Shown here piece after piece: positions 13,268-34,532 of a DNA stretch of 56,079 nt; the first letter of the stretch is position 1, and every line of letters begins with the position of its first letter. Both the position numbers and the translations under genes were made by a program. This stretch comes from a virus (Duplodnaviria; Caudoviricetes), in the IMG/VR virus record IMGVR_UViG_3300036945_000489, positions 1-56,079 of that record. One strand, given 5' to 3'. A model generated the notes under the pieces. The model saw only the letters and a program-made list of their open reading frames with translations. It did not search any database and was not told where the DNA came from.

Positions 13268-13301
13268 AATAATACAATTATAAATGCTTTTTAAAATTCG
13301 C

Positions 13302-13322
13302 TGTGGATAACATTGTGTATAA
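13302..13322. promoter_or_regulatory. Tandem DnaA-box pair
   Basis: TGTGGATAA-cat-TGTGTATAA (reverse complement of TTWTNCACA). Confidence 0.7.
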
Positions 13323-14534: not shown

Positions 14535-14645
14535 ATGTTTTCAGTTTGCGAACTTTGCGATGTAGTAGTAGAGAAGATTTTCATCAAGGAAGAAGGCGAG
14601 TATGGTTGTGAAATCTGCTGGTCTGCCTATGGTGAGATTCACTAA
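14535..14645 (+). CDS. Early Zn-finger microprotein
   Basis: GAAAGGA RBS; MFSVCELCD...CEICWSAYGEIH. Confidence 0.65.
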   Translation: MFSVCELCDVVVEKIFIKEEGEYGCEICWSAYGEIH

Positions 14646-14711
14646 TAGACTTGACAATTGTCATACCTACCCCCTAGAATTAGAACATAACCTAAAAGAA
14701 AGAATCAGAAA

Positions 14712-14918
14712 ATGACTAAGTACGCAAAGACCTCAATCAAAGCCCTAATCCTATCTATCGCCCTAACTGTTGCTGTTGTATTGCTTGACGGCGTTCGCAA
14801 GAGTAATGATGTAGAGGCTCAGGTGTTGGGTGGTATGGCTGAGTTTGTTGTTGGAATGTTTGCCCTAATCGCTGTTGTTGGAACTATCGTTTACCTATTC
14901 GTTGGAGATGAGGCATAA
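14712..14918 (+). CDS. Early two-TM membrane protein
   Basis: Two hydrophobic segments; own promoter and RBS. Confidence 0.65.
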   Translation: MTKYAKTSIKALILSIALTVAVVLLDGVRKSNDVEAQVLGGMAEFVVGMFALIAVVGTIVYLFVGDEA

Positions 14919-15204
14919 TGTCAGACACTACCCCTAAACTATCAGTAGAAGAACTAGAAGTCCTTATCTTCCAGATTGACCTAATGCTAATGAATGAGAG
15001 TAAGTAAATGAATAAACTATTTGGCTTTACCTTCCTAGCCACCTTCCTAACGCTATCTACTAATGACTATTGGGGCTGGGCATTCATTGGTGTAGTAGCC
15101 CTGCTACTGATTGCCCCATTCACTACCCCTGAAACAATGGGTCAAAAGAAATCTAAGTAATACGGCGTGTCAGCTTGACAGATCCCTGGAAAGGGCCCCG
15201 ATCC

Positions 15205-15225
15205 TGTGGATAACTCTGTGGATAA
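15205..15225. promoter_or_regulatory. Tandem DnaA-box pair
   Basis: TGTGGATAA-ctc-TGTGGATAA. Confidence 0.75.
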
Positions 15226-15337
15226 CTATTGTTAAGTATCTACAAAAAAATCCCCTAAAGTTTGTGCGTTTTGGGCTTGACTTTTGTAAGTATCTATGAT
15301 TAACTATATATAGATAAAGAAAAGAAAGGAATTCCAG

Positions 15338-15478
15338 ATGAATTCACTAATGAAAGTAAATGTATCAGATGTAGCAATGTGCGAGATTTGCGACAACTAC
15401 ACCCCTAGAGTGTATGTAGAAGAATTTCAGCAAGAATGCTGTGAGATTTGCTACGACGCTTATGGCGAATGTAACTAA
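15338..15478 (+). CDS. Early Zn-finger microprotein, paralog of 14535..14645
   Basis: CEICD...CEICYDAYGE; near-duplicate upstream region ATATATAGATAAAGAAA..GAAAGGA. Confidence 0.65.
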   Translation: MNSLMKVNVSDVAMCEICDNYTPRVYVEEFQQECCEICYDAYGECN

Positions 15479-15514
15479 ATAACCCCTATAACTACTAAAA
15501 GAAAGGTAAGCATA

Positions 15515-15655
15515 ATGCCTACACTAACTAACGGAACCTTCGTTCCAGTTCACTACAATGACCGTTTCTATGAGGCTAACTGCCCTGAGTGTAATGAAGA
15601 GGTTTCTGCTCTTACTCACTCAGACATAGTAGAGATTCTAGACATTCACTGCTAA
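15515..15655 (+). CDS. Early microprotein (CPEC)
   Basis: GAAAGG RBS; 46 aa. Confidence 0.6.
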   Translation: MPTLTNGTFVPVHYNDRFYEANCPECNEEVSALTHSDIVEILDIHC

Positions 15656-15704
15656 GTGTCTGCCCCTAGTGCTACAATGTAAATAACTAAGAAAGGTAAA
15701 ACTA

Positions 15705-15872
15705 ATGAACATCAAAACACCTATGGACCTACCTACCCTACAGCGTGAGTATGACGCTATGGTTAAGGTTGCTATGCGTTCTATTGACGCAGGGGTTGAC
15801 CTATCCCCTGCTTTTGAGCGTGAACTAACCCTACTAATGAAGGCAGTAAAGGGAATGGGCGGAAAGGTATAA
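15705..15872 (+). CDS. Early hypothetical microprotein
   Basis: Promoter plus GAAAGG RBS; 55 aa. Confidence 0.6.
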   Translation: MNIKTPMDLPTLQREYDAMVKVAMRSIDAGVDLSPAFERELTLLMKAVKGMGGKV

Positions 15873-15930
15873 AAACTTTTCTACCCCACGGCGTGTCGTG
15901 TTGACAAACCAGCTTAGATCTGATCGGGCC

Positions 15931-15951
15931 TGTGGATAACTTTGTGGATAA
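15931..15951. promoter_or_regulatory. Tandem DnaA-box pair
   Basis: TGTGGATAA-ctt-TGTGGATAA. Confidence 0.75.
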
Positions 15952-16077
15952 CTTTTAAGATCGTTGTAAGAAACCTCCAAAAAAGTTTGTAGAAACTTAC
16001 AAAGAAAAAAGGCGTGTTTGTGCCATAAATGTCTGACCCCTGTGGTAATGTAGAACTATCAGATGAAAGGAAAACTA

Positions 16078-16218
16078 ATGGATAAAATGTGTGTTTACTG
16101 CGAGGGTGTTTTTACTAGCGATACTGTTGTATGCCCTAACTGTGATGAACTTGACGGCTTGCTACCGCTAGAAAAAGCGATTGACTACCTAGGGCTTGAC
16201 CCTAATGACTTTGAATAA
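16078..16218 (+). CDS. Early Zn-ribbon microprotein
   Basis: CVYC...CPNC; GAAAGGA RBS. Confidence 0.65.
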   Translation: MDKMCVYCEGVFTSDTVVCPNCDELDGLLPLEKAIDYLGLDPNDFE

Positions 16219-16269
16219 ATGTCATACCCCTCTGCTAAAATAAATTAACAAACAAAGAAAGGGCAACTA

Positions 16270-16449
16270 ATGCCAAAACCAAGAATGACCAAAAGCGAAA
16301 AAGCGTTTACTGAGAGAGTTCACGCAATTGTTTTTGCTACACCAGAAATCCGTAATGGCGTTTCATACCTTGACCGCAAAACTTTTGCTTTGTTGCCAGA
16401 AGTTGCTCAGAAACGATACCTAAATTTGTTAGCAACCAAGACACGCTAA
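16270..16449 (+). CDS. Early basic microprotein
   Basis: Promoter plus RBS; 59 aa. Confidence 0.55.
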   Translation: MPKPRMTKSEKAFTERVHAIVFATPEIRNGVSYLDRKTFALLPEVAQKRYLNLLATKTR

Positions 16450-16496
16450 ATGTCTGAGGGTAATGCTAAACTAAATCTATAAACAAAGGACAGAAA

Positions 16497-16646
16497 ATGT
16501 ATAACGATAACGAACTAGTAAAATGCTCAGACTGCCAAGCGTTAGGTCTGTTCGCACCTGACCTGTATGGCAACTCTGTGTTTCACCACAAAATCCCAAG
16601 CCAGCGAGTTGGCTACTTTACCTTTACAACTACTCACCTAATCTAA
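16497..16646 (+). CDS. Early microprotein (CSDC...HH)
   Basis: AAGGA RBS; 49 aa. Confidence 0.55.
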   Translation: MYNDNELVKCSDCQALGLFAPDLYGNSVFHHKIPSQRVGYFTFTTTHLI

Positions 16647-16658
16647 GGATAGAAAATA

Positions 16659-16832
16659 ATGATGACACGCAAAGACTATGTTGCTACCGCTGAAATTATC
16701 AAGTCATACAACCTACAACTGCCAGAAATTGTTTTGGAAAAGTTGGTAAATGATTTTGCTGAAATGTTCAAGGCTGATAACCCACGCTTTGACTCTAACC
16801 GTTTTCGTGTTGCTGCTATGGAGGTAAACTAA
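16659..16832 (+). CDS. Conserved phage early protein (MTRKDY...DNPRFD..RF family)
   Basis: Recognisable motif of small phage early proteins; function unknown. Confidence 0.7.
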   Translation: MMTRKDYVATAEIIKSYNLQLPEIVLEKLVNDFAEMFKADNPRFDSNRFRVAAMEVN

Positions 16833-17575
16833 TGGAGATTTTTCTAATCGCTTCTGCCCTGCTAAACATTCTAGGCGGAATAACCATTTTGCTTTTGCTA
16901 AAGAGTCTAAAGAATAATCTTCCACCTTTTTAGCGACACGCCAGGCCAGGACTTGACAAAAGCTCCTGGATCTGGTCGGGGGGCGTTATCCTATCGTTAT
17001 AAAAATCGTTAAGAAGATAGTTGCTTTTCCCCTGAATGTGTGATAGGTTTATCTTATAACGAAAGGTGAACTTATGGAAGACATGGCAGCTGATTTTGGT
17101 TGGGACCTCTTTGATGAGGAGGAGGGCTTCAATGTCCCTCTAACCTCTGAGGAGGTGGAGGCTGAGCGTCGCTCTATGGAGCAGGAGGCTCGTGACTCCA
17201 TGATTGGCGAGATGTATAATGCTCGCTACTCATTTGATTGACAAATCCAGGGAAACCTGGTCGGGCCCATCAAAGATCAAAAGTCAAGTCAATTAAGAAG
17301 ATTGAAAAACTTTTCCAGGATTATTAAATGTCAGAGGGTCGTGTTAGTATTTTAGTATGAGAAAAAGAACGAAGCCTTTAGGCAAGGTAAACGAAGCAAG
17401 ACGCAAGGCTGAGAGTCAAGCGTTATTCCACTCTATGCTAAAAGAGGGCAAGAAGCAGGTTGTTATCCCTAAGAAGTTTAAGGGGACACGCCAAGAAAAG
17501 TTTCGTGAAGCCCTTGACAATGAGTAACTAATCCTGTAAAATTATTTCATAACCCCAACAAGAAAGAGGTCCACT

Positions 17576-17881
17576 ATGGGCAGCAACTTTGTAGCAGAGA
17601 TTCAAGACACAGACCTATTCCCTAACTTTGATTTGCGTGACGCTATTGGCATGCACCTTAGAGGTAATTGCTATCCCCCTATCCCTATTGAGATGGCAGA
17701 CGTATGCGTTGAGGCTGTTTATGCCTATGAAGATGGTGACTACTATCGTATGCTTACCCTGCCTAAAATTGGTGATTTCCAAGTCCGCAACCGTGACGGT
17801 AGTATTGAAGTGACTGCAATGCAAGTAGTAGAGAACACACGTATTGAAGGATTCATTCAAGATATGGAGTATGAAGACTAA
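17576..17881 (+). CDS. Early hypothetical protein
   Basis: TTGACA..TAAAAT promoter, GAGG RBS; HL.GN.YPP motif. Confidence 0.7.
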   Translation: MGSNFVAEIQDTDLFPNFDLRDAIGMHLRGNCYPPIPIEMADVCVEAVYAYEDGDYYRMLTLPKIGDFQVRNRDGSIEVTAMQVVENTRIEGFIQDMEYED

Positions 17882-18141
17882 TGGAAGAGTTTGATAAACT
17901 AATGCAGACTATATTGTCTGAGGGCCTTGCTAAAATAGATTCACTATCAGAAGAGGAGCTATACCAATGGATGAGCAATACGTAGCAGAACTATTTGAGA
18001 TGTTTCACAATGGTGATATCAGTGCCAGTGATTTAATGGCGGATCTAGATATGGGTGGCTTTGATGGCGATCTAATTGACTATCTATAAATGTCATACCC
18101 CTAGTCTATAATAATCTTATACCCCAAAAGAAAGTAGCAAA

Positions 18142-18663
18142 ATGACTAACTATGTTGAGATTTATTCAGAACTAATCAAGAAGGCAACCTTTGGCCAGGT
18201 AGAGACTGCCAGTAAATGGTATGTTGACGCTGAGCGTATTGCAGAACAAGTTGCTAAGAACTTAGGTACCACACTTGATGTTGGTGCCAGTGTTATCAGT
18301 GCATTCTCACCTAGGGAGCGTTGGAGCGTAAACGTTGCACGTGCGATTGCATTCTCACTAGGCGAAGAGGTGACTTGCCTAAAGAACAACATAGTCATGG
18401 CTAACAATTCTTTGACCATGGGATTCAGTGCCCTAAAGGGATTGAAGACTAATGCATTCGCTAAGGCTATTGCAGGTGATGAGCAAGCGGTAGTGATTGA
18501 TGTTTGGATGTTGCGTGCCGTTGGTATTGAGAAGAAGACACCTAATCAGTCTTTGTATAATGAACTATCTAACGCTATCAAGGCTGCTGCCTTTGAAGTT
18601 GGTATGACCCCAAGAAGTGCACAGGCTTTGATTTGGATTATCATTAGGGGTAGTGCCCAATGA
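18142..18663 (+). CDS. Conserved phage protein, possibly DNA-glycosylase-like
   Basis: WY..A, SAFSP...W..N, KT.AF, VVIDVWMLR (resembles the HhH-GPD catalytic Asp region), QA..W. Confidence 0.55.
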   Translation: MTNYVEIYSELIKKATFGQVETASKWYVDAERIAEQVAKNLGTTLDVGASVISAFSPRERWSVNVARAIAFSLGEEVTCLKNNIVMANNSLTMGFSALKGLKTNAFAKAIAGDEQAVVIDVWMLRAVGIEKKTPNQSLYNELSNAIKAAAFEVGMTPRSAQALIWIIIRGSAQ

Positions 18664-19197
18664 TTGACTTATCCCTAAGCATATGGGATAATAAAAGGTG
18701 AATGTTTTAGTTGTTGGCGTATGCCTAATATTGTTGATGTTTATCTTATTTATCTTAGCCCCTTTGATAATAGGATTTATCTTTTTTATTGAGACCTTTT
18801 TTGGAGATTGGATTGAGCGTGGAAGAAAGAGAAACTGATGATGTGATGATGCTAGGATGCTTTATCTTTGCAGGTCCATTCTTTATTCTATTAGGCATAA
18901 TTTGCATTCTAGCTTTGTTTAGTTGACAAACTACCCCCAGGGGGCCCGACCACACCAAAGCTGATCTGTCAAGTCTTTAAGAAGATCTTTAAGAACCCCC
19001 AAAACTTTTTCAAATTCTTACGGCGTGTCGCTTTACAATGTCGTAGGGTGTGTGTATAATTGAGGTATAGCAAAAGAGATGTCGCAAAAATAAATAAAAA
19101 AAGTTTAGAAAAGTGCTTGACAAACTCCCCAAACTATGAAATAATAGATTATCAGCAAAAGTTGGTAATAAAATCAAAAAGAGAAAGAAGCAATACT

Positions 19198-19344
19198 ATG
19201 AACACTCTAACTGTTGGCTCACAGTTCACCACCGCTAAGTCAGGCGTTGTAGGCACTATTCAGGAAATCGTAAAGAACGCAAGTGGCTCACAGCGTGTCC
19301 GTCTAGATGTAAACGGACAGCCTCGCTGGACTACTGTAAAGTAA
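19198..19344 (+). CDS. Early small beta protein
   Basis: Probable start MNTLTVGSQF behind a TTGACA promoter. Confidence 0.65.
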   Translation: MNTLTVGSQFTTAKSGVVGTIQEIVKNASGSQRVRLDVNGQPRWTTVK

Positions 19345-19349
19345 TAACC

Positions 19350-19377
19350 TCTGCTGGGTATCAGATAAAACTGCCCA
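19350..19377 (+). ncRNA. H-type pseudoknot copy 1
   Basis: TCTG-CTGGGTAT-CAGA-TAAAAC-TGCCCA. Confidence 0.65.
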
Positions 19378-19411
19378 CCACAACCCACCCCTGAAAAGAA
19401 AGACTACCAAA

Positions 19412-19597
19412 ATGGCTACTAAGACCAAGATTGTTATCTCAACTGAGAAGTGGAACACCACCAAGGGTGAAATCTACAAGGCAGTTGTTCGCACCGCAGA
19501 CGGCAAGTTTCTAGGTGCTACTAATCAGACAACTAACATTCCTGTAAAGGCTAAGCGTAAGGCATCAAGCCCTCGTTTCTTCCTAATGGGCAAGTAG
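19412..19597 (+). CDS. Early basic hypothetical protein
   Basis: ORF with purine-rich RBS. Confidence 0.65.
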   Translation: MATKTKIVISTEKWNTTKGEIYKAVVRTADGKFLGATNQTTNIPVKAKRKASSPRFFLMGK

Positions 19598-19603
19598 TTG
19601 CTA

Positions 19604-19630
19604 ATCCTGAGTATGATGTAAAACTGCTCA
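19604..19630 (+). ncRNA. H-type pseudoknot copy 2
   Basis: ATC-CTGAGTAT-GAT-GTAAAAC-TGCTCA. Confidence 0.65.
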
Positions 19631-19699
19631 CCAATAAATGTCAGACCCCTCTGATAGAATAATGAAGTAAACAAATACCCCTAAAGAAAGAAGTATCTA

Positions 19700-20149
19700 A
19701 TGGCTCGTGCCTTATCTGTAAAAGTTCCAACTGCCGCTGTAATTTCCCAGATTGAGTTGGCTATCGCTGACATTGACGCTAAGGTTGCGTCTTATGCTGG
19801 TGATGTTGAGAAGTATAACCTAGAACTAGAAATCTACAAGAACGAAGTTGCTACCGCCATCATCAAGTATGTTGGTGCTAACACTAACAAGATTGGTTAT
19901 GACTACACCTCAGAAATCCGTATCTCACAAGGACACTCTGGCAAGTTGGAACTAGCGTTTGACGCTGACAAACTTGTTGGCTTCCCTGTTCGCCCAACTG
20001 AGCCTAAGAAGCCTAATCAGTCTGAGTGGTATGGCAACAAGCACATCAACCGCAAGGAAGTCTTGGAAAGCAACCTACGCATTTTGCGTATGACCACCCA
20101 AGAGGAAATCAACGCCTCATCTTACTCGTCTGTAATGGACTTGCTCTAA
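19700..20149 (+). CDS. Early hypothetical protein
   Basis: 149 aa with its own TGTC promoter. Confidence 0.75.
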   Translation: MARALSVKVPTAAVISQIELAIADIDAKVASYAGDVEKYNLELEIYKNEVATAIIKYVGANTNKIGYDYTSEIRISQGHSGKLELAFDADKLVGFPVRPTEPKKPNQSEWYGNKHINRKEVLESNLRILRMTTQEEINASSYSSVMDLL

Positions 20150-20159
20150 GATGAAAAAC

Positions 20160-20188
20160 GACCTGAGTATGTCTATGTAAACTGCTCA
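20160..20188 (+). ncRNA. H-type pseudoknot copy 3
   Basis: GAC-CTGAGTAT-GTC-TATGTAAAC-TGCTCA. Confidence 0.65.
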
Positions 20189-20198
20189 CCACAAACCT

Positions 20199-20327
20199 CT
20201 TGTAAGTGTCCTAGGCAACGGCTTACAAGCGTGAGGGCTAACACGATAACGAAGCAAGTCTTAGACAACCGCAAGGCTCTAAGGCGAAACTAATCCTCCT
20301 GCCTAAATAACAGGGGGATTTCTTTTT
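20199..20327 (+). ncRNA. Multi-hairpin structured RNA ending in an intrinsic terminator
   Basis: Three hairpins, then ATCCTCCTG/CAGGGGGAT followed by TTCTTTTT. Confidence 0.5.
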
Positions 20328-20576
20328 GACTTGACAACTGATCCAAAAATGGTCGGGCAGCTCTAAGTGATAGAAAAAATAGTTTAAGAAACACCATATT
20401 AAATCCCCATAATGTCAGACCCCCCTGGTATAGTTATAGTAATCAAAGAAAGGAACCCCAATGCAAGGAACGTTTAGCATCAACTTTTGTGAGACCTGTA
20501 ATGACTTTGGCTTAGTGTCAGTGGTCAATGGTAAACTAATGGTTCAGTCGTGTGAATGTGTAAAGGGAGATAACTA

Positions 20577-20771
20577 ATGGCTTATGTTGAGTATGATGGA
20601 TTGTATTTTTCAGAGGATGGCAACTATGGTGGTGGCAAGATTATTATTGCTGACCATGACGCTTTCACTGAGGAGCAGATGGAACTACTAGGTTCACTTG
20701 GCGATAACTCTCGCTATGACTATGCCAATGCCGTTTTGAATGGCCAAGATGTTTCTGAATGGGAGGACTAA
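20577..20771 (+). CDS. Acidic early protein
   Basis: GGAG RBS; D/E-rich. Confidence 0.65.
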   Translation: MAYVEYDGLYFSEDGNYGGGKIIIADHDAFTEEQMELLGSLGDNSRYDYANAVLNGQDVSEWED

Positions 20772-20772
20772 G

Positions 20773-20931
20773 ATGGGATACCAATACGAAGTTTCTTATG
20801 TTGCTAACTACTATGTAGTGAGTGATGAAAAACTAACTGATGAGGAAATCATTGAGCAGGCTATTGAGCAACACGAAGACTTGCCAGATGGCAGTTGGAC
20901 AGTTGAGTTGGAGGAGGAAACAGTTGACTAA
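20773..20931 (+). CDS. Acidic early protein
   Basis: GGAGG RBS; start MGYQYEV. Confidence 0.6.
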   Translation: MGYQYEVSYVANYYVVSDEKLTDEEIIEQAIEQHEDLPDGSWTVELEEETVD

Positions 20932-21254
20932 GATAGTTTTAGATGTAGACGCAGACTACAACGGTAGCAACCTTGTAGAACTATGTGAGTTGCTACTAAC
21001 AGAGATTCAGGAGTTTCGTCAAGAGCGTGTTGGCCTTGACATCAATGATGGCTTTGGTGACTACCTTGAGGGACTTATCTCTGCTAGGGAAGTTATGCTT
21101 GGAAGACTTGGAGTACCCCTTGAAGTTTACATGGATGGAGATTGCTAATGAACTTTGACCACCTTACCCCAAGTATGTGGGAGACCCTACGCAAGTTTGA
21201 CTACTACCAACTGAGGAAGTTTGCTCAGATGTTTGAGCCACTGGAGGAGGACTA

Positions 21255-21458
21255 ATGGCTGAATACAGAGATGTAGTGATCGAATGGCACGATGAACCTG
21301 GAGTTCAATACGCAACTACCGTTTCACTTGACGGTGAGTGGAACTCTCTAGACGAGGATGATGATAACATCTTCTTCTACTTTTCAAGTGAGTCAGAGTT
21401 TGAAGAGGCAAAGCAAGATGGCGACAACGGGTATGAGTTCAGGATTGTGGAGGAGTAG
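21255..21458 (+). CDS. Acidic early protein
   Basis: GGAGG RBS; D/E-rich. Confidence 0.65.
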   Translation: MAEYRDVVIEWHDEPGVQYATTVSLDGEWNSLDEDDDNIFFYFSSESEFEEAKQDGDNGYEFRIVEE

Positions 21459-21460
21459 AA

Positions 21461-21664
21461 ATGGCAAGAATCGCTAGAGCAAGTGTTGTGTTTGAGTTCC
21501 AACTAGATGAGGACCCATTGTTTGAGATGGACCAACATGAATGGTCAGATGAACAACGCCTGACTTATTTCAAAGAGATGATGGCAGAGGACCTAATCAC
21601 CATGTCCTATGGTTCTGGAGCAGAACTAATCAACGCTATCGATGTGGAGATTCTAAATGTCTGA
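21461..21664 (+). CDS. Acidic early protein
   Basis: GGAG RBS. Confidence 0.65.
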   Translation: MARIARASVVFEFQLDEDPLFEMDQHEWSDEQRLTYFKEMMAEDLITMSYGSGAELINAIDVEILNV

Positions 21665-21814
21665 GGGTAATGCTAAAGTAGACACTATGAACAAATGCTA
21701 CCAATGTGAAGAACCATTAGACCGTGACCCAGTAGACGAGGTTCACCCCCTATGTAATGATTGCCAGTACGAGTTTGATGACTGGCTACAAAATGAGATG
21801 ATGAGGTTCAACTA

Positions 21815-22006
21815 ATGCCTATGTTCTATGTAAAGATGATGATTGAGTTCTCAGGTGAGATTGAAGCAGACAGCGAAGCAGACGCAGAGCAAAAGGCTTG
21901 GACCAGTTGGGGAGACACTATGGATAATGAGATAACTTATGACGGTGTCTATTCCGTAGATGTTGAAGAGATTGAAGAAGAAGATGACGAAGAAACAACT
22001 GAGTAG
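21815..22006 (+). CDS. Highly acidic early protein
   Basis: IEADSEADAE motif, poly-E/D tail. Confidence 0.65.
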   Translation: MPMFYVKMMIEFSGEIEADSEADAEQKAWTSWGDTMDNEITYDGVYSVDVEEIEEEDDEETTE

Positions 22007-22147
22007 GATTCTTGAAGAGTGGAGTGAAGAGTTCCACAAAGACTATATGGATAGTTATAATCAAGACTTACGCTCTGGCCACTACCGTGACTTATTGTCA
22101 GAGGTTATTGATAGAATAGATGCGTTGAACGCTTACAACAAAAAGAA

Positions 22148-22573
22148 ATGGTGGAAGAAATGAACGAGAGCATGCACCCAGTACTAGAGACACTAAAGAC
22201 ACGCATTGAACTACTTGAGCAAGAAGTGCAGGCAAAGCAGGACAACGTTGACAGTCTTCGCAATGATTTCAAACTGCTACAGGACCGTGGCATTCAGTAT
22301 GCTGAGCGTGTAAAGACTGTTGTCTATGACCTATACAAGGACGGTGGCTACGATGAAGACACCCTACTTGCAGTCATGCGTAATCTTGATATTGACACAC
22401 GTGCAAGCAAGAAGTTTGAAGTCAACGTGACTTTTGAGATAGAACTTGAATATGCCCTAGGTGAAGAGATTGACAAGAGCAACCTTGAGTGGGACCTAGA
22501 GTTTGATGTCAAGTCTGGAGACTATGAAGTTCTTGACTACAGGTCTGATATCCTTTGGAGCAACGAAGTTTAG
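22148..22573 (+). CDS. Early coiled-coil hypothetical protein
   Basis: ORF downstream of the TGTC promoter at 22096. Confidence 0.65.
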   Translation: MVEEMNESMHPVLETLKTRIELLEQEVQAKQDNVDSLRNDFKLLQDRGIQYAERVKTVVYDLYKDGGYDEDTLLAVMRNLDIDTRASKKFEVNVTFEIELEYALGEEIDKSNLEWDLEFDVKSGDYEVLDYRSDILWSNEV

Positions 22574-22585
22574 TAGGGGTACTAA

Positions 22586-22612
22586 AGGCCTGAGCAAGCT
22601 TGACAACTGCTC
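22586..22612 (+). ncRNA. H-type pseudoknot copy 4 (overlaps module TTGACA)
   Basis: AGGC-CTGAGCAA-GCTT-GACAAC-TGCTC. Confidence 0.55.
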
Positions 22613-22769
22613 CCCTTTGGGGACCGAGCAGATCAAAGATCCTTTGTCAACCCTTTAAGAAAGACTAATTATTTTTCCAGAAATATGCTAAATAACCTTG
22701 ACAATGTCAGTGGGTTCCTGTAAAATAGACTTATCACTCAGAAATCCCCTAAAAGAAAGTTGGCTCCCT

Positions 22770-23783
22770 ATGGCTCACGATTTGGAAACCGTAAACGGTC
22801 AGACTGCTTTCGCTTCATTGCGACAGCCTGCTTGGCACAACCTTGGCACAGTATTTCAGGACGAGGTAAACACTAACGAGATGTTGGCGTTGGCTCACCT
22901 TGACAACTGGAATGTTCGCCTTGAAGATGTTGCTATCCCTGATGGCTTTGCTTCAGACAAGGGCTACTCATTCGTGACACGCACGAACCCATTTGACCGC
23001 AACACTAATGATGTTCTTGGCGTTGTTGGTGAACGTTATGTTCCTCTTCAGAATGAAGACCTATTTAGTTTTGGTGACAACCTGCTAGACGGTGGTGGAC
23101 GTTGGGAAACTGCTGGCTCTATCAAGGGTGGACGTGTTGTCTTTGGCTCTATCGCATTGACTGACGGAATCACACTTGACCCTAACGGACGTGCTGACAA
23201 GATTGATAACTATCTTCTAATCAACACCTCTCACGATGGCTCTGTTGCTATTCAGGCTTCTATCACACCTGTTCGTGTTGTTTGTGCTAACACTCTAAAC
23301 TTGGCTTTGTCTGCTGTGAATGGCAAGAAAGATGTCAAGCAAACTTTCAAGATTCGCCACACCCAGACCGCAGAAGGCAAAATCGCTGTGGCACGTGAGG
23401 CTCTTGGACTTGCTCACAAATACATTGACGAGTTCTCTTCTATTGCTAACGCTATGATTGAAACTGAAATCACTAAGGCTCAGTTTGACGACATTGTTGC
23501 TCTTGCCTACCCTGCCCCTGCTAAGGACGCTAAGGGTTCACAAAAGAAACACGATGGCAAGATTGACCTGCTTCAGTCTATCTATGTTGGTGACTACAAC
23601 AACACCATTAGCGGAACTGCTTGGGGTGCTTTCAATGCTCTAACAGAACGCCTAGATTGGTATCGCAACTCACGTGGCGGAAACAACGAAAGCATTTATG
23701 CTTCTGCTTCAGGCTTTGACCCAGTAATCAACGCTGAGAAGAATCGCCTAATGAAGATTGTTCGCCAAACTGTAATGGCATAA
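22770..23783 (+). CDS. DUF932/DUF945 family phage/plasmid protein
   Basis: MAH...PAWHNLG, LGVVG.RY.PLQN, ETAGS..GGR.VF, NTSHDGS, P.RVVCANTL, TAWGAFNA.TE..D. Confidence 0.85.
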   Translation: MAHDLETVNGQTAFASLRQPAWHNLGTVFQDEVNTNEMLALAHLDNWNVRLEDVAIPDGFASDKGYSFVTRTNPFDRNTNDVLGVVGERYVPLQNEDLFSFGDNLLDGGGRWETAGSIKGGRVVFGSIALTDGITLDPNGRADKIDNYLLINTSHDGSVAIQASITPVRVVCANTLNLALSAVNGKKDVKQTFKIRHTQTAEGKIAVAREALGLAHKYIDEFSSIANAMIETEITKAQFDDIVALAYPAPAKDAKGSQKKHDGKIDLLQSIYVGDYNNTISGTAWGAFNALTERLDWYRNSRGGNNESIYASASGFDPVINAEKNRLMKIVRQTVMA

Positions 23784-23944
23784 CAATAAACAACACGCCT
23801 ATCCCTGGACTTGACATCTGGGGGTAGGCTGTGGCCGATCACATCTAAATAGGATTGTCAAGCTTAAAAATAGTATTAAGATATGCTTGACTTTTTCCCA
23901 GAATTTTGAGATAATTGATTATCAAATAGAAAGTAGGAATTCTA

Positions 23945-24442
23945 ATGGGTACACGCAATCTAACAGTAGTAAAAGACACAGAGGGTGAAGTTGTAGTAGC
24001 CCAGTATGGACAATGGGATGGCTATCCATCTTACACAGGAGCAGGAATCATTGGCTTCCTATCTGATTCACAGAATGTTGACTACCTAAAGGCTGGCCTT
24101 CACTCTGTTCGTTTTGTTTCAGATGATTACGTAGATAAGATTTATAACGAGGTTTCTAACCGTGCAGGTGATGAGGCTTTCAAAGAGGCATACCCTTCGC
24201 TAACCAGGGATGTGGGATGGCAGATTCTTGAGATCATTCGTGACAAGATGAATGTGCCTCTAGTAAACTCTATTGACTTTGCAGCGGATGAACTATTCTG
24301 TGAAGGGTACTATGAGATTGACTTCCAGACTAATAAGTTTATTAGTAAGTGGAATGGTATGACTATTGAGCACTCTATCAATGCCCTTCCAATGGTGGAA
24401 GATTACGTAGAAAGTTTTGAAAAAAGCTTGACAAACGCCTAG
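23945..24442 (+). CDS. Conserved phage early protein (MGTR...WDGYP family)
   Basis: MGTRNLT...QYGQWDGYPS motif. Confidence 0.75.
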   Translation: MGTRNLTVVKDTEGEVVVAQYGQWDGYPSYTGAGIIGFLSDSQNVDYLKAGLHSVRFVSDDYVDKIYNEVSNRAGDEAFKEAYPSLTRDVGWQILEIIRDKMNVPLVNSIDFAADELFCEGYYEIDFQTNKFISKWNGMTIEHSINALPMVEDYVESFEKSLTNA

Positions 24443-24485
24443 CCCTATGGCATAATGTATATACACCCCAAAAGTAAGGAAACCC

Positions 24486-25031
24486 ATGCACGTTTTACAA
24501 TGGATTGCTGTAAAGAACCCTGCCACATTTGATATCGAAGAGCTGGACACTTGCAAGCAGGAAGCCCATGACCTTGTCAAATCTAAGTTTGAAGAAATGT
24601 ATTCTGAGAGCGAAGGTCTTGGCGGTTGGTCTGACTGGTATATTGTAGGTGGGGGTAGGTGGAATCCTGACCCTGATAACCAATATAAAGAAGACGACTA
24701 CTCTATGGTTGTGTCTTATGGTGCAGAGCCTGATAAGTTTATTGAAACTATCAACAATGCTATTGAAGAGCGTAAGAATGAGTTTGCTACCTACCGTGAC
24801 CGCTTTGAGAAACAGAACATTGATATCTCTGCTAGTTTAGATAAGTATGACGGAACTACAGATTACTCATTCGACATGTATGAACTAAATAAACTAATTG
24901 ACATGTTGCAGGGTAAGTGGGATATGAACTCATACTTCTACGACCTAAATAACTGGTCAACAAATCCTAAATGGGTGCTTGACAATCTCGACGATTCATG
25001 GTATCTTATACCTGTAGACTTCCACTTCTAA
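24486..25031 (+). CDS. Early hypothetical protein
   Basis: MH...WSDWY.VGGGRW...PVDFH motif; TTGACA promoter. Confidence 0.7.
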   Translation: MHVLQWIAVKNPATFDIEELDTCKQEAHDLVKSKFEEMYSESEGLGGWSDWYIVGGGRWNPDPDNQYKEDDYSMVVSYGAEPDKFIETINNAIEERKNEFATYRDRFEKQNIDISASLDKYDGTTDYSFDMYELNKLIDMLQGKWDMNSYFYDLNNWSTNPKWVLDNLDDSWYLIPVDFHF

Positions 25032-25041
25032 GGAGACCCCA

Positions 25042-25458
25042 ATGTCTAAATTCTATACCTATTCCTCTTGGGCAGATACATTCAAGCCAACCAAGAACCA
25101 CATCACTAATGGTATTGATACTCACTTTGAAACCTATGGTGAGGAGCAAGAGTTCGTACGTACAACTGACCCTAAGTTTATCTGGACTGAGGTAGACGGT
25201 GACAGTGGCACTTACATTGTTGCTGGCTATCACTATGTGAATCGCATTCATTACTACATCACTGAGAATCCTTGGGATGATGAGATGACTGAAGTACCTA
25301 CTTGGGTATACCGCCAGTGTGACTGTGCTGAACAGAACGAAGACGGCGACTACGACCCTGACTGCCCAGAGTGTGATGAGGGAATGATTGACATTGACTG
25401 TGACACTGTGGTAGCATTGAAAGACATCTATGGAGAGGACGCACCAATTGTCAGTTGA
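25042..25458 (+). CDS. Hypothetical protein with C-terminal CxC/CxxC
   Basis: FETYGEE..FV...IWT...G.HYVNR.HYYITE; AGGAG RBS. Confidence 0.7.
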   Translation: MSKFYTYSSWADTFKPTKNHITNGIDTHFETYGEEQEFVRTTDPKFIWTEVDGDSGTYIVAGYHYVNRIHYYITENPWDDEMTEVPTWVYRQCDCAEQNEDGDYDPDCPECDEGMIDIDCDTVVALKDIYGEDAPIVS

Positions 25459-25611
25459 GATTCTAAACCCAGACGTAGTATGTGCGGACTGTGGCACTGA
25501 GTATACACCAGATGGTGAATGGGTTGGCGACACATTTATGTGTGACAGCCAGCAAGAGTATTGCTTGAACTGCTGTGGTTGTGAAGACCATGACATTACT
25601 GAAGAAGGGCC

Positions 25612-25968
25612 GTGGTACTAATGGCTATTCCAGATCTTGATACAGCCCTAGGCAGGCTAATAGACTATGACCTAAACATCTATCACCTAGAAGAAGAGAA
25701 CGACGAAGGTGAGTATGAGTACACTGACCAATGGTACGTTGACATCTATGAGTATCTAGATAGAGACCAGATGCATGTTGCTGGCCCATTCATGATTACT
25801 GATAACCAGAGGGACCTGCTCCAGCTTGGTACAGGAGGTTACTTCACTGACGATGACTCTTGGTATGGCATGTGGGGATTCATGGCTGACTACAAAGGCA
25901 AGTTACTTCCAGAACTGCTAAGCATTCTGCAGTCATTGCCTAAGTACAAGGATGAGACCTTGTTCTAA
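25612..25968 (+). CDS. Acidic hypothetical protein
   Basis: ORF in early operon. Confidence 0.6.
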   Translation: MVLMAIPDLDTALGRLIDYDLNIYHLEEENDEGEYEYTDQWYVDIYEYLDRDQMHVAGPFMITDNQRDLLQLGTGGYFTDDDSWYGMWGFMADYKGKLLPELLSILQSLPKYKDETLF

Positions 25969-26304
25969 TTAAATAAACTTCCATGTTGAGACTACTCCAT
26001 GGAATACATATGGTAGGGGTACCATATGAAAGGGTATGGTTGGTAGGGGTACCATCATATCTTAGAGGGGCAGAGCGAGAGACATTTCCTACTTTCACTC
26101 TTGCTCTCCCCTCTTATTTTTGCTATAATGAGTTGAGGTATAAAATGAGAAAGCACGCACTAACAGAGGAACAAAAGACAGCAGTAAAGATAACCAAACT
26201 ACTAGACAGCGTATCACTTGACTTGGACAGAGTGGGAATTGAGATTGCCAGAATAAGACCAACAACAATGTATAACCGCCTAATGCTCGTAGCAGAATCA
26301 GCAG

Positions 26305-26586
26305 TTGAAGAACAGGAAAATAATGGAAGAAACGACCTACGCTAATAAGTGTGCCATCCTAGCAGACCTATGGATGACCTATCGCAATGATGAACAGTTC
26401 CAAGACTTCATTGAGTATAACGACTTGGGCTTGCCCTTGTCCTATGCCATTGATAGTGAGATTGTAAAGTCAACAGAGATGGCTCAGCGTTTCATTGAAG
26501 AGGCATTCAGTCTCTTGCTTGCTGGACTAGACATTGCTGAAGACGCAGGGTATGAAACTATGGATGACATCCTAGGGGGACTATAA
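26305..26586 (+). CDS. Hypothetical protein
   Basis: DF.EYNDLGLPL motif; distant paralog of 26615..26878. Confidence 0.6.
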   Translation: MKNRKIMEETTYANKCAILADLWMTYRNDEQFQDFIEYNDLGLPLSYAIDSEIVKSTEMAQRFIEEAFSLLLAGLDIAEDAGYETMDDILGGL

Positions 26587-26614
26587 TGTCAGAGGGGTAT
26601 GGTAAGGTAGTAGT

Positions 26615-26878
26615 ATGAATAAGATAACTAAAGACCAGTTCCTAGACATTTGCTTTGCTATCAACGAAGCCTATACAGATGTTCGTATGGACTACATTGG
26701 TGATAAGACTATTTACAATCAGGAAGTGTTTGACCAAGTGTTGGTTGAGGACTATTTGTATTGTGGTCTAGCCCAATGTATCTATCTTGACATTGTTCCT
26801 TATGACACTTTGACTGATGAAGCAATCAACGCAATTATGGAACTGTATCAGGACTACTTGGCATTAGAGCTAATCTAA
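26615..26878 (+). CDS. Hypothetical protein, probably leaderless
   Basis: ATG 6 nt after the -10 of the TGTC promoter at 26587. Confidence 0.6.
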   Translation: MNKITKDQFLDICFAINEAYTDVRMDYIGDKTIYNQEVFDQVLVEDYLYCGLAQCIYLDIVPYDTLTDEAINAIMELYQDYLALELI

Positions 26879-26959
26879 AAGAAAACAGGATTGCCCCTTG
26901 ACAAAGGGGTTTTCTTGTGCCCGAACCAATGTTATCAAACTGTTATCAAACCATATTGA

Positions 26960-27670
26960 CAAAAAGACATTACGAAGGTATAATATATTTCCCCGAATGT
27001 CCAAACATTTGTATATCAAAAACAAATTTGTTTTGCATATAAGACATTACGATGAGATCAGAAAAATCGTGGAAGTTTGTATGTGTTATTACTACCTATA
27101 GGGATAATGGGTATAGCTTTATCTACCCCAGCAAAGCTGGTGGCCAAAGGCCAGGGTATAAGAGGATCATCTTTGATACCAAATCCCCCTAGTATAAGTA
27201 ATAACACATAGGCAGATATGGGATTACGAAGAACATTAAAAAATCCCAGAAAGTCTATATGTTTTATATATATTTATGTATGTTTGTTTAAATAAGTATA
27301 TAGTTTGTTATCATTTTGTTATAAAAAATATGGCCTATTTGGGAATAGCTGGGATATAAATATTTGATAACAATGTTTGGATATGGTGGTTTGGGGGTTG
27401 ACAAATGATTACGTTTATGGTAAGAGGTGTTCTATTCTCCACTAATCTCCACTTCCATCCACTTATTAACACTCTGTGTATAACTCAGTAAGATATTTAA
27501 GCTAACAAACACCATCAGAACATACTCTAATAAGCCATAGAAGCCTCATAGAGAGGTTTAAATGTCTGGGGGTATTAGATCATGCATATGGGGGTTATGT
27601 CTTGATATGGAGGATATCAGGAGATGTGGATAACTCTGATATCTGTGGATAAACCTGTGTATAACCTTAT
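26960..27670. other. Candidate replication origin / non-coding control region
   Basis: ATTACG repeats, AT-rich tract, 10-bp-phased TCCACT x3, DnaA boxes at 27475, 27625, 27644, 27656. Confidence 0.5.
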
Positions 27671-27819
27671 CTATTTAACCAAGCAAGACCAAATGTTGCT
27701 ATGATTAAAATAGCCAAACCAATGTATTGTTCCATAGGGTATTCTTTCTACTAGGTGTATCTTATACTAGGGTTAATGAGAGTATCTCTTGATACCCCCA
27801 GAAAATGCTATAATTTATT

Positions 27820-34525: not shown

Positions 34526-34532
34526 GGTAGTC

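What the first reader, a model, noticed from the sequence alone, without database searches (positions are those of the whole stretch)
15175..26975. Nine modular 'dead-promoter' pads with a fixed CG core and interchangeable host-protein arms (top candidate for an undescribed system)
Seen: a perfect TTGACA (15175, 15901, 16953, 17238, 18923, 20331, 22600, 23811, 26898) is followed not by a -10 but by a GC core, TCGGG or its inverse (C)CCGA. The CG lies 18 nt after the hexamer in six copies and 17-19 nt in the rest. The right arm varies but keeps its position. It is an inverted -35 exactly 18 nt after the CG in four copies (AGTCAA 17282, TGTCAA 18967, 22645, 23856; module E is a perfect TTGACA-N18-CG-N18-TGTCAA dyad). 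It is a DnaA-box pair 4 nt after the CG in two copies (15205, 15931) and a GTTAT-N6-GTTAT repeat in two (16985, 26931). TTAAG(A) follows ~29-32 nt after the core in seven copies, then a real promoter. Each module sits between gene cassettes. Inference, as alternatives: landing pads that capture RNAP-sigma, DnaA and response regulators to ratchet DNA entry or titrate them; programmed nick/processing sites as in T5; or recombination sites that shuffle early cassettes.
Basis: partly seen in the sequence, partly recalled or inferred. Interest (0 to 1): 0.9.

Follow-up and report, generated by a model that had tools for sequence, protein, structure and literature searches.

The report
Promoter-like decoy sites between phage early genes
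Between the first-expressed genes of an uncultured freshwater phage lies a repeated DNA element that looks like half a promoter joined to a GC-rich block that differs between phage lineages, sometimes beside binding sites for the host replication starter protein DnaA; it is conserved across related phages and resembles a poorly understood stretch of phage T5, but its job is still inferred.

Summary
The scan tool called none of the nine promoter-like.

Comparison with 80 related viral loci and three complete ~110-kb relatives adds four points:
- The unit is TTGACA, then 16-17 nt, then a GC-rich near-palindrome centred on CpG.
- The core word is nearly constant within a genome and differs between lineages.
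- The element is confined to one early-gene island.
- It sits at the 3' end of early transcription units, upstream of promoter candidates.

Arms on either side point towards the core: a second TTGACA, a DnaA-box pair with a 3-nt gap, or 11-nt direct repeats.

The closest known element is the 'injection stop signal' repeat of T5-like phages. I found an invariant CTTGAC without a -10 between its DnaA-box pairs. The PeSL cassettes of T4-like phages are the nearest concept.

My best reading (about 0.35) is a non-firing double-stranded DNA site where proteins assemble, marking and regulating unit boundaries. Function is inferred only; no data on RNA ends, nicks or protein binding were available.

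The parts
15175..15225 (+). Pad A. TTGACA at 15175-15180, GATC at 15181 and 15200, core GGCCCCGATCC (CG at 15199), DnaA-box pair at 15205-15225. An ACGGCGTGTC box lies just upstream (15162-15171).
15901..15951 (+). Pad B. TTGACA, two GATC sites, core GATCGGGCC (CG at 15925), DnaA-box pair at 15931-15951. An ACGGCGTGTC box lies upstream.
16934..17001 (+). Pad C. A long imperfect hairpin (CGACACGCC...GGTCGG) holds TTGACA (16953) in its loop. Core GGTCGGGG (CG at 16977); GTTAT-N6-GTTAT from 16985.
17238..17287 (+). Pad D. TTGACA overlaps the stop codon of ORF 17074-17241. Spacer hairpin CCAGG-GAAA-CCTGG, core GGTCGGGCC (CG at 17262), AGTCAA at 17282.
18923..18972 (.). Pad E. Exact dyad TTGACA-N18-CG-N18-TGTCAA. 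The TTGACA-N17-TCGGGCC unit is on the - strand.
20331..20360 (+). Pad F. TTGACA-N16-GTCGGGC (CG at 20354), directly after a terminator-like hairpin with a T-run (about 20297-20330).
22600..22650 (.). Pad G. Dyad; the - strand unit is TTGACA-N17-TCGGTCC. The + strand TTGACA lies in the loop of a GAGCA...TGCTC stem.
23793..23861 (.). Pad H. Dyad; the - strand unit is TTGACA-N17-TCGGCC. On the + strand a stem with three G-U pairs encloses TTGACA (23811).
26893..26947 (+). Pad I. TTGACA lies in the loop of the top-ranked terminator-like hairpin of the scan (26893-26910, followed by TTTCTTGTGC). Core GCCCGAACC (CG at 26922); GTTATC repeats from 26931.
15232..27000 (+). Second conserved block after each pad: TTAAGA or TTACGA, N14-15, then (T)CCCC-N-GAAT. 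TTAMG starts at 15232, 15955, 17009, 17293, 18977, 20384, 22655, 23876 and 26970.
19032..19060 (+). Promoter candidate after pad E (TTTACA-17-TATAAT, 11 of 12 matches). The others are 20412-20440 (F), 22698-22726 (G), 23887-23915 (H) and 26956-26984 (I).
13302..13322 (+). DnaA-box pair with a 3-nt gap, in the non-coding stretch at the left edge of the island.
27625..27664 (+). Three DnaA boxes (27625; pair 27644-27664) in the 1-kb non-coding stretch at the right edge of the island.
28752..28782 (-). Two direct repeats AAGTTCGGCG that carry the core-like word, upstream of the first right-arm promoter (TTGACA-17-TATACT, 28732-28704).

Best explanation
The pads are non-initiating sites on double-stranded DNA where proteins assemble. 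They mark the boundary of each early (host-takeover) transcription unit.

**Anatomy, shown by the sequence.** Each pad has a hub: a GC-rich near-palindrome centred on CpG. At least one TTGACA lies at promoter geometry from it, 16-17 nt away. The hub occupies the place of the -10, so an ordinary sigma-70-type promoter cannot form there. Further arms point inward to the hub: a second TTGACA, a pair of host-type DnaA boxes, or 11-nt direct repeats.

**Mechanism, inferred.**
- Region 4 of the host's main sigma factor, within RNA polymerase, docks on the hexamer without opening the DNA.
- A factor that differs between phage lineages reads the hub.
- DnaA binds where its boxes are present.
- The bound complex, together with the hairpins that overlap or precede the pad, stops or insulates transcription coming from the upstream unit. 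It also gives the phage a handle to regulate or shut off the early units.
- As a by-product, the repeated conserved words act as homologous-recombination points where early gene cassettes are exchanged.
For: **No promoter at the pads.** There is no -10 at any of the nine pads by the scan tool, while consensus promoters with the same cTTGACAa hexamer lie nearby.

**Tight geometry.**
- The lineage core word has a TTGACA (at most 1 mismatch) 14-17 nt upstream in 38 of 45 occurrences across six loci. Most sit at 16 nt.
- In the window the gap to TCGG is 17 nt in six units and 16 nt in one.

**Core specificity.**
- The core is uniform within a genome and differs between lineages: TCGGCC, GTCGGG, GTCGCC, CTCGCC, GAGCGC and CTCGGG types. 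The 16-nt spacers differ between pads, which argues for sequence-specific reading rather than gene conversion.
- The core keeps a CpG in a genome where CpG observed/expected is 0.46.
- It is confined to the island. All 26 composite matches in three complete ~110-kb relatives lie within stretches of 4-11 kb (reversed-pattern control 0). GGTCGGCC occurs 9 times in G002, all between 5.6 and 17.0 kb.

**Symmetry points to double-stranded DNA.**
- Dyads with 37-39 nt between hexamers occur 3 times in the window (0.05 expected) and 38 times in 25 of the 104 loci held at that point.
- The core occurs in both orientations relative to the + strand genes.
- DnaA pairs and GTTAY repeats replace a hexamer on either side and always point towards the core.

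**Position.**
- Eight pads begin 0-28 nt after an ORF stop; F follows a terminator-like hairpin.
- Pad I is the best terminator-like hairpin in the scan.
- In relatives a classic hairpin plus T-run directly abuts the TTGACA.

**A core-like word also lies upstream of a promoter.** Core-like direct repeats lie upstream of the first right-arm promoter, where an activator site would be expected.

**The DnaA arms look genuine.**
- They match the consensus box 9 of 9.
- Pad A shares 19 identical nt with an oriC-like DnaA-box cluster of a freshwater Actinomycetota genome.

**Parallel in T5-like phages.** An invariant CTTGAC without a -10 sits between DnaA-box pairs.
Against: - There is no binding, footprint, transcript-end or nick data of any kind. 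The only public RNA run is held as contigs and cannot show starts or ends.
- No candidate hub-reading protein emerged from comparing ORF families with core type.
- In GAGCGC-type and L075-type loci the short core word is tied to an exact TTGACA much less often: 2 of 14, 5 of 13 and 2 of 9.
- In 26 hairpin-type pads the + strand folds better than its complement (-22.1 against -19.4 kcal/mol, p = 0.004). That favours a role in RNA or single-stranded DNA for that subset.
- Only 26 of 181 unique pads carry DnaA boxes and 74 have no recognisable arm.
- Uniformity of the core could partly reflect the few GC-rich words left once restriction-site-like tetramers are avoided.
Confidence: 0.35

Rival explanations
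1. RNA-level element. The pads are terminator or processing hairpins at the ends of early messages. In actinobacteria such hairpins often lack a U-tract (recalled, not checked). The TTGACA would be a promoter remnant or an overlapping word, as in the composite and 'degraded' PeSL terminator/promoter motifs of T4-like phages. On this view conservation comes from RNA structure and from recombination between copies.
For: - Stems with compensating changes enclose TTGACA in 26 C- and H-type pads. The sense strand is more stable than the antisense (p = 0.004).
- Pads fold better than shuffled copies (-17.5 against -13.6 kcal/mol).
- Pad I scores as a terminator, and classic terminators abut pads in F and in relatives.
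- Passages of PMC4122927 describe PeSLs with an intact -35 and stem-loop but no -10.
Against: - TTGACA lies in a predicted loop in only 21 of 118 + strand pads, and strand asymmetry over all + pads is weak (p = 0.08).
- The fixed 16-17 nt hexamer-to-core distance, the mirror-image dyads with non-complementary spacers, and cores in both orientations relative to the transcribed strand are not expected of an RNA element.
- There is no Rfam match.
- RNAalifold found no consensus structure on the plain alignment.
Confidence: 0.2
2. Alternative promoters. TTGACA plus the core at 17 nt would be a promoter class read by host polymerase redirected by a phage factor, with the lineage-specific core acting as a new '-10'. 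Units on the - strand would then make antisense RNA that shuts off early genes.
For: - The spacing is that of sigma-70-family promoters.
- The core co-varies with phage lineage, as the target of a phage-encoded specificity factor would.
- The + strand is favoured by roughly 2 to 1 in six loci.
Against: - No Sigma70_r2 domain was found in the window or in three complete relatives.
- The core occurs in either orientation behind a + strand hexamer, as in A, I and L022 3672.
- Face-to-face dyads would fire into each other.
- Units on the - strand run straight into strong hairpins and the 3' ends of genes.
- A GC-rich CpG block is a poor site for DNA melting (established knowledge).
Confidence: 0.15
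3. Control of DNA entry, as proposed for the T5 injection stop signal. Pads would capture membrane-associated DnaA or polymerase to pause or ratchet genome entry, or would be programmed nick sites.
For: - DnaA-box pairs with a 3-nt gap, and a hexamer without a -10, occur both here and in the repeats of T5-like phages that one T5 record annotates as the 'injection stop signal'.
- Pads are confined to about 10% of the genome, which holds the small early genes.
- The DUF932 gene of the island lies near a genome end (about 1.2-2.7 kb) in Streptomyces phage records and matches two places per record.
Against: - The T5 model itself is an untested preprint hypothesis.
- Nine to twelve pads, one per gene cassette, fit transcription units better than a single stop.
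- Most pads lack DnaA boxes.
- No end repeats are recorded for these records.
- Nothing here can show nicks.
Confidence: 0.1
4. Replication origins, or auxiliary sites for an initiator. The core would be an iteron for a phage initiator working with host DnaA, as in plasmid origins that combine tandem DnaA boxes with iterons (recalled).
For: - Tandem DnaA boxes directly abut the core, and an A+T-rich stretch follows.
- The DnaA clusters at the island edges, especially 27.2-27.7 kb, look origin-like.
Against: - There is one core per site rather than arrays.
- There are nine or more sites per genome.
- Most pads lack DnaA boxes.
- The hexamer-to-core geometry is left unexplained.
Confidence: 0.07
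5. Target sites of a site-specific recombinase that shuffles cassettes. The 50-bp dyad with a central dinucleotide resembles large serine recombinase attachment sites in outline only (recalled).
For: - Dyad geometry.
- Cassette differences with end points inside pads.
Against: - No Resolvase or Phage_integrase domain was found in the window or in three complete relatives.
- The joints lie at the DnaA boxes and other conserved words, not at the central CG.
- Half the pads are not dyads.
Confidence: 0.03

Closest known systems
Inverted repeats IRC-spacer-IRD and IRD'-spacer-IRC' in the first-step-transfer region of T5-like phages, annotated 'injection stop signal' in record AY692264
   Same: - DnaA boxes occur in pairs separated by 3 nt (section 3.3 of bioRxiv 10.1101/866236, read).
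- Between the pairs lies a CTTGACA with no -10 at 16-18 nt (my reading of AY587007).
- GTCAAG is invariant in five aligned copies from T5, fuchur, UTK0009 and Kpn02.
- The repeats lie in the non-coding parts of the region that holds the earliest genes.
   Different: - T5 has two large repeat copies with four boxes each. This phage has one pad per cassette, and most pads have no boxes.
- T5 has no lineage-specific GC/CpG core at the -10 position.
- The boxes face the other way (TTATCCACA after the hexamer in T5, TGTGGATAA here).
- The phages share no detectable DNA or protein similarity in my searches.
- The preprint does not mention TTGACA, promoters or RNA polymerase. I did not see its supplemental files.
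PeSL (promoter-early stem-loop) cassettes of T4-like phages
   Same: - Composite stem-loop plus sigma-70-type promoter words are repeated at the borders of small variable early genes and linked to cassette gain and loss.
- 'Degraded' copies with a -35 and stem-loop but no -10 are described (passages of PMC4122927; PMC2839356 seen as a search listing and abstract start only).
   Different: - Here the -10 is not decayed. It is replaced by a conserved, lineage-specific core at fixed distance.
- Accessory arms (DnaA boxes, a mirrored hexamer) are present.
- A separate promoter candidate follows.
- The phage group is different, and so is the likely host phylum.
Ordinary sigma-70/sigma-A promoter
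   Same: A perfect -35 hexamer with the same flanks as the neighbouring early promoters, and a 17-nt spacer.
   Different: There is no TAnnnT at any of the nine pads. The position is held by G/C with a CpG.
oriC-type DnaA-box clusters of freshwater Actinomycetota
   Same: The same 9-mer box occurs, including a pair with a 3-nt gap and a G/C-rich word just before the boxes. Pad A shares 19 identical nt with one such cluster.
   Different: Similarity stops at the boxes. The hexamer-core composite was absent from the two genomes searched.

Membership tests
sigma-70-type promoter | -35 hexamer close to TTGACA | tested here: met
   Exact TTGACA in 9 of 9 pads.
sigma-70-type promoter | -10 hexamer TAnnnT 16-18 nt downstream | tested here: not met
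   None of the nine pads passes the scan. The position reads TCGGGC, CCGATC and similar.
PeSL composite terminator/promoter | Stem-loop joined to an early promoter word | tested here: met
   Hairpins enclose or precede TTGACA in C, F, G, H and I and in relatives. In all + strand pads TTGACA lies in a predicted loop in only 21 of 118.
PeSL composite terminator/promoter | Complete -35/-10 promoter within the motif | tested here: not met
   There is no -10 in the pad; a separate promoter candidate lies 35-100 nt downstream.
PeSL composite terminator/promoter | Sits at borders of variable small genes where relatives differ by insertions and deletions | tested here: met
   The synteny is mosaic. 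Contig joints run 15226/7 to 15982, 15229 to 15890 and 26618 to 26930. Nearly every intergenic gap holds a pad, so the association is weakly discriminating.
T5-type injection-stop repeat | DnaA boxes in pairs separated by 3 nt | tested here: met
   Present in pads A and B and at 13302 and 27644. Only 2 of the 9 pads have them.
T5-type injection-stop repeat | Two long inverted copies with a 52-bp spacer flanked by box pairs on both sides | tested here: not met
   Pads have boxes on one side only, and no long inverted copies were seen.
T5-type injection-stop repeat | Location in a long terminal repeat that enters the cell first | not testable with these tools
   The records are classed linear with no end repeats found. 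Raw reads were not available.
Intrinsic terminator | G+C-rich hairpin followed by a T-run | tested here: inconclusive
   Met for pad I and just upstream of F. The other pads have hairpins without a T-run.
DnaA box | 9-mer TTATCCACA (consensus recalled; also quoted in the preprint) | tested here: met
   Matches 9 of 9 in four boxes of pads A and B. The same word clusters in oriC-like DnaA-box clusters of Aquiluna and a related genome.
Recombinase attachment site | A cognate serine or tyrosine recombinase in the genome | tested here: not met
   PF00239 and PF00589 are absent from the window and three complete relatives; the named control genomes gave hits.
Known RNA family | Match to an Rfam covariance model | tested here: not met
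   0 matches at E up to 1 over 12300-28900.

The most novel reading that the evidence does not exclude
The pads would be a new class of cis element: deliberately unmeltable 'promoter decoys'. They would hold host sigma-polymerase in a closed complex beside a phage-lineage-specific hub, and optionally beside host DnaA. The element would have evolved in parallel with the T5 injection-stop repeats. On this view, docking of polymerase and DnaA without initiation is a general device by which large lytic phages control the first DNA segment to act in the cell, governing its entry, insulation or capture of host factors.
Probability: 0.2. Interest if true: 0.85.

Novelty: new variant of a known kind. 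Interest (0 to 1): 0.62.

Why it matters
How large lytic phages organise and switch off their first genes is understood for only a few model phages, and the T5 'injection stop signal' has had no mechanism for decades.

This element gives a second, independent example of the same word set: a -35 hexamer without a -10, next to paired DnaA boxes. It comes with dozens of natural variants, a lineage-specific core that can be swapped experimentally, and a clear statement of what must co-vary with it. That makes the T5 question testable by comparison. If binding is shown, it would add a non-initiating class to the known uses of promoter elements.

The element also marks the borders at which early anti-host gene cassettes differ between related phages.

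Tried and rejected
- **RNAalifold.** On a MAFFT alignment of 26 hairpin pads it returned no structure, because the stems are out of register. I used per-sequence folds instead.
- **Collection-wide scan.** CTTGACA-N16-GTCGGCC gave 112 stretches. The reversed control gave at least 118, so single hits are chance. Stretches with 2 or more copies appeared only among the listed rows of the real-pattern scan (L025, L117, L119, L135, L181). None did among the listed rows of the control.
- **Search for the hub-reading protein.** All-against-all clustering of 7,466 ORFs from the window segment and 80 loci, compared with core type, gave no convincing candidate.
  - The DUF6171 protein is identical across different core types.
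  - The 57-aa helix-turn-helix protein has the same recognition helix across four core types in 6 members.
  - A 77-aa family is absent from the window.
  - The analysis is confounded by shared descent and by loci that do not reach all genes.
- **Host assignment.** The endolysin found no relative. NrdF gave freshwater Actinomycetota at 82-83% identity, which is a hint and not proof.
- **Domain searches.** No Sigma70_r2, Resolvase or Phage_integrase was found. The PF00940 search is uninformative because its controls did not respond. A D12 methylase hit in one relative is below the cut-off.
- **Read laying.** All four runs are contigs. They cannot show starts, ends, strand or nicks, and I do not interpret stretches without cover.
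- **Ideas considered and dropped.**
  - A heat-shock-sigma reading of the TTAAGA...CCCC block: recalled resemblance only, and unlikely in an actinobacterial host.
  - Dam/SeqA sites: no Dam-type enzyme was found, and Dam is not typical of the likely host phylum (recalled).
  - IHF sites, integron attC sites, primase sites and nut-like sites: none could be tested and none fitted all the features.
- **Megablast and tblastn.** Megablast of the region and tblastn of a 672-aa protein against cultured phages found nothing.

Full report
**Setting**

The window is an IMG/VR virus record of 56,079 bases, estimated 49% complete.
- Ten tRNA genes lie on the - strand.
- The left arm (- strand) encodes proteins with collagen-like and Ig-like domains, of the kind seen in tail fibres.
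- The right arm (- strand) encodes ribonucleotide reductase, ThyX, a dNMP kinase, sugar-nucleotide enzymes and glycosyltransferases.
- Between them, at about 12.8-28.4 kb, lies an island of some forty small + strand ORFs. Almost none matches a known family. The exceptions are DUF932, DUF7178 and DUF6171.
- Thirty of the 41 + strand TTGACA hexamers in the window fall in this island.
- The phage NrdF is 82-83% identical to those of freshwater Actinomycetota genomes, including Aquiluna, and the DUF932 protein is shared with many actinophages.

- The CG lies 18 nt after the hexamer in six pads, 17 nt in F, and 19 nt in G and H.
- The mirrored hexamer lies exactly 18 nt after the CG in D, E, G and H.
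- DnaA-box pairs lie 4 nt after the CG in A and B.
- GTTAT-N6-GTTAT occurs in C and I.
- TTAAG lies 30-33 nt after the CG in seven pads.

Chance does not explain this.
- The composite occurs 6 times against 0.16 expected.
- The dyad occurs 3 times against 0.05.
- The exact DnaA 9-mer occurs 9 times, all on one strand.
- The consensus scan lists none of the nine pads as promoter-like. It does list neighbouring sites with the same hexamer at 11-12 of 12 matches.

**What the relatives add**

A search with the DUF932 protein brought in 80 related loci.
- By a working definition (TTGACA, no TAnnnT at 16-18 nt, at least 9 G/C in the 12 nt at +13 to +25), the window and these loci hold 206 pads, 181 of them unique.
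- The exact TCGG form occurs 64 times, in 22 of the 80 loci. Many loci have no pad with a perfect hexamer.
- Pads of the same types recur in relatives. Similar hairpin and spacer sequences of pad C, and the pad next to the DUF932 gene, are found across phages.

**The hub**

The consensus is TTGACAaa, about ten variable nucleotides, T, then GGGGcCGcCCCc. This is a GC-rich near-palindrome centred on CpG.

The core word is almost constant within a genome but differs between lineages:

| Core type | Where |
|---|---|
| GGTCGGCC | L022, L025, L028, L033, L052 |
| GTCGGG | the window |
| GTCGCC and close variants | L044, L045 |
| GCTCGCC | L068, L073 |
| GAGCGC | L026, L027, L031, L035 |
| CTCGGG | L051, L054, L056 |

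- In six loci the core word has a TTGACA (at most one mismatch) 14-17 nt upstream in 38 of 45 occurrences, nearly always at 16 nt. The exceptions mostly have a DnaA pair or GTTAY repeats in that place.
- The link is much weaker for the shorter words of L026, L031 and L075: 2 of 14, 5 of 13 and 2 of 9.
- The spacers differ from pad to pad, so homogenisation by gene conversion is an unlikely cause of the uniform core. I infer a reader with sequence specificity.
- The core obeys each lineage's oligonucleotide avoidance.
  - The window has CCGG 0 (106 expected), GCGC 1 (106), CGCG 0 (106) and TCGA 17 (207), with CpG observed/expected at 0.46.
  - The GAGCGC lineages instead lack GGCC entirely.
  - The asymmetric GGTCGGCC is what remains of a GGYCGRCC palindrome once TCGA and CCGG are forbidden. 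This last step is my inference.

**Confinement to the island**

- In three relatives rated 100% complete (about 110 kb each), all 26 composite matches lie in one stretch of 4-11 kb. The reversed-pattern control found none.
- GGTCGGCC occurs nine times in one of these genomes, all between 5.6 and 17.0 kb.
- In the window the core word occurs 11 times. Nine are the pads. The other two are direct repeats upstream of the first right-arm promoter.

**Arms**

Relative to the core, the arms are arranged symmetrically and point inward. They can be:
- TTGACA at 16 nt;
- two DnaA boxes with a 3-nt gap, abutting the core;
- two GTTAYC words 11 nt apart.

Among the 181 unique pads, 59 have the mirrored hexamer, 26 have DnaA boxes, 12 have GTTAY repeats and 74 have none of these.

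GATC lies in the hexamer-to-core spacer of 93 of 206 pads. The figures are 7 of 472 for promoter-like TTGACA sites and 56 of 1,235 for other TTGACA sites. Its meaning is open.

The DnaA arms look genuine.
- The two genomes with the nearest NrdF that I examined (Aquiluna and an Actinomycetota genome) use the same 9-mer in oriC-like DnaA-box clusters. These include a pair with a 3-nt gap preceded by a G/C word.
- Pad A shares 19 identical nucleotides with one such cluster.
- Similarity ends at the boxes, and the hexamer-core composite is absent from both genomes.

**Position and structure**

- Eight pads start 0-28 nt after an ORF stop. In D and E the stop codon lies inside the TTGACA itself. 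F follows a hairpin with a T-run.
- Pad I is the top terminator-like hit of the scan, with TTGACA in its loop.
- In several relatives a textbook terminator abuts the hexamer.
- In 26 pads of types C and H a long imperfect stem encloses TTGACA, with compensating changes between phages. The stem runs from the CGACACGCC word to the core. The + strand folds better than its complement (-22.1 against -19.4 kcal/mol, Wilcoxon p = 0.004).
- Over all + strand pads the asymmetry is weak (p = 0.08), and TTGACA is in a loop in only 21 of 118.
- Hairpins are therefore a real feature of a subset, but they cannot account for the hexamer-core geometry or for the dyads, whose two spacers are not complementary.

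**Downstream of the pad**

A second conserved block follows: TTAAGA or TTACGA, N14-15, CCCC-N-GAAT. After it comes a promoter candidate, which scores in the scan for E-I and is weaker, found by eye, for A-D.

**Cassette exchange**

Synteny with relatives is mosaic. Contigs from other samples skip from the DnaA pair of pad A to that of pad B (15226/7 to 15982). They have further joints in pads B and I and at other conserved intergenic words. No recombinase domain was found, so homologous exchange at repeated words, as proposed for PeSLs, is the simplest reading. Almost every intergenic gap holds a pad, so this association is weak evidence.

**Closest known system**

- A preprint on T5 (10.1101/866236; abstract and section 3.3 read) reports two things about T5-like phages. 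The inverted repeats thought to be the injection stop signal carry DnaA boxes 'always in pairs separated by 3 bp', and the spacer between them is constant at 52 bp.
- In the T5 record I found a CTTGACA in that spacer in both repeat copies (6078 on the + strand, 9406 on the - strand). No -10 follows at 16-18 nt, and the hexamer lies 22 nt before a box pair.
- GTCAAG is invariant in an alignment of five copies from four T5-like phages, while the rest of the spacer varies.
- The preprint does not mention this hexamer, promoters or polymerase.
- My literature searches found no description of such an element.
- The library lacks most subscription-journal papers, so the older T5 literature may hold more.

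**Weighing the readings**

The fixed promoter-like spacing, the mirror symmetry, the independence of strand, the lineage-specific hub and the interchangeable inward-pointing arms together favour recognition of double-stranded DNA by proteins. The replacement of the -10 by a G/C block explains why the site should not fire. This is the basis for my best explanation.
- Binding by polymerase, by a hub reader and by DnaA is inferred.
- The position at unit ends is shown.
- The roadblock or regulatory role is inferred.

The rivals, in order:
1. An RNA-level terminator or processing role, which certainly contributes in some pads.
2. A phage-specific promoter class, weakened by the absence of a sigma domain and by orientation.
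3. T5-like control of DNA entry, or nicking, which is untestable here.
4. An origin-related role.
5. Site-specific recombination.

**Verdict**

The feature is real, conserved and statistically solid. No function is demonstrated.

Noticed in passing
whole window; loci L021-L100: Short G/C palindromes are almost completely avoided: CCGG 0, GCGC 1 and CGCG 0, each against 106 expected. TCGA is 17 against 207, and CpG observed/expected is 0.46. Lineages L026, L027, L031 and L035 instead avoid GGCC (0 against 28-43 expected) and tolerate GCGC. This looks like restriction avoidance that differs by host.
   Followed up: partly
window 19345-19380, 19598-19630, 20160-20195; also inside pad G at 22590-22620: A second conserved element lies right after stop codons: a short stem with compensating changes (GAGCA...TGCTC, GGGCA...TGCCC, AGGCA...TGCCT) around a loop ending in AAACTGC. 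It also follows the DUF932 gene in many relatives. A contig joint runs from 19345 to 19604, skipping the stretch between two of these sites.
   Followed up: no
window 15162-15171, 15888-15897, 16936-16944, 19020-19029, 23800-23806 and others: The word ACGGCGTGTC, or its complement CGACACGCC, lies just upstream of -35 hexamers of both pads and real promoters. In C- and H-type pads it forms the 5' foot of the hairpin. A similar word (CGGCGTGTTTCCACA) lies within oriC-like DnaA-box clusters of two freshwater Actinomycetota genomes.
   Followed up: partly
window 26956-27700: The best consensus promoter of the island (26956, 12 of 12 matches) is followed by about 900 nt with no convincing ORF. That stretch holds a very A+T-rich segment, GTTAT repeats and DnaA boxes at 27475 (one mismatch), 27625, 27644 and 27656 (one mismatch). 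It is a candidate replication origin or non-coding RNA locus.
   Followed up: no
window 28745-28790 (- strand) and 13340-13395 (+ strand): AAGTTCGGCG(A/G)TAAA direct repeats lie upstream of the first right-arm promoter, and related TTCGGCGG words lie upstream of the first island promoter. These are possible regulator sites at both edges of the island.
   Followed up: no
window 13503-13706 and 13801-13974: The first two island genes encode small proteins. One is a 67-aa Cys-rich DUF6171 protein, conserved in 36 of 81 loci and identical across different core types. The other is a 57-aa helix-turn-helix protein with sub-threshold GerE (E = 0.0034) and Sigma70_r4_2 (E = 0.021) matches. The second could bind one of the constant words.
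   Followed up: partly
window 17320-17527: A basic 56-aa ORF (17357-17527) starts 6 nt after a TGT-TAGTAT extended -10-like word and has no ribosome-binding site. It may be a leaderless message.
   Followed up: no
L101 (T5, AY587007) 6078 and 9406; L102-L104: In T5-like phages, GTCAAG (CTTGAC on the other strand) is invariant within the otherwise variable spacer between the DnaA-box pairs of the annotated injection stop signal, and no -10 follows it. The preprint I read does not mention this.
   Followed up: partly
window 32033-45204: A cluster of glycosyltransferases, a nucleotidyl transferase, a HAD hydrolase and a Stealth-like protein sits beside ThyX and a dNMP kinase. This may point to sugar-modified DNA or to cell-surface modification.
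   Followed up: no
window 12300-28500: GATC is scarce in the island overall (34 against 58 expected), but 13 of the 34 lie inside pads A-H.
   Followed up: partly
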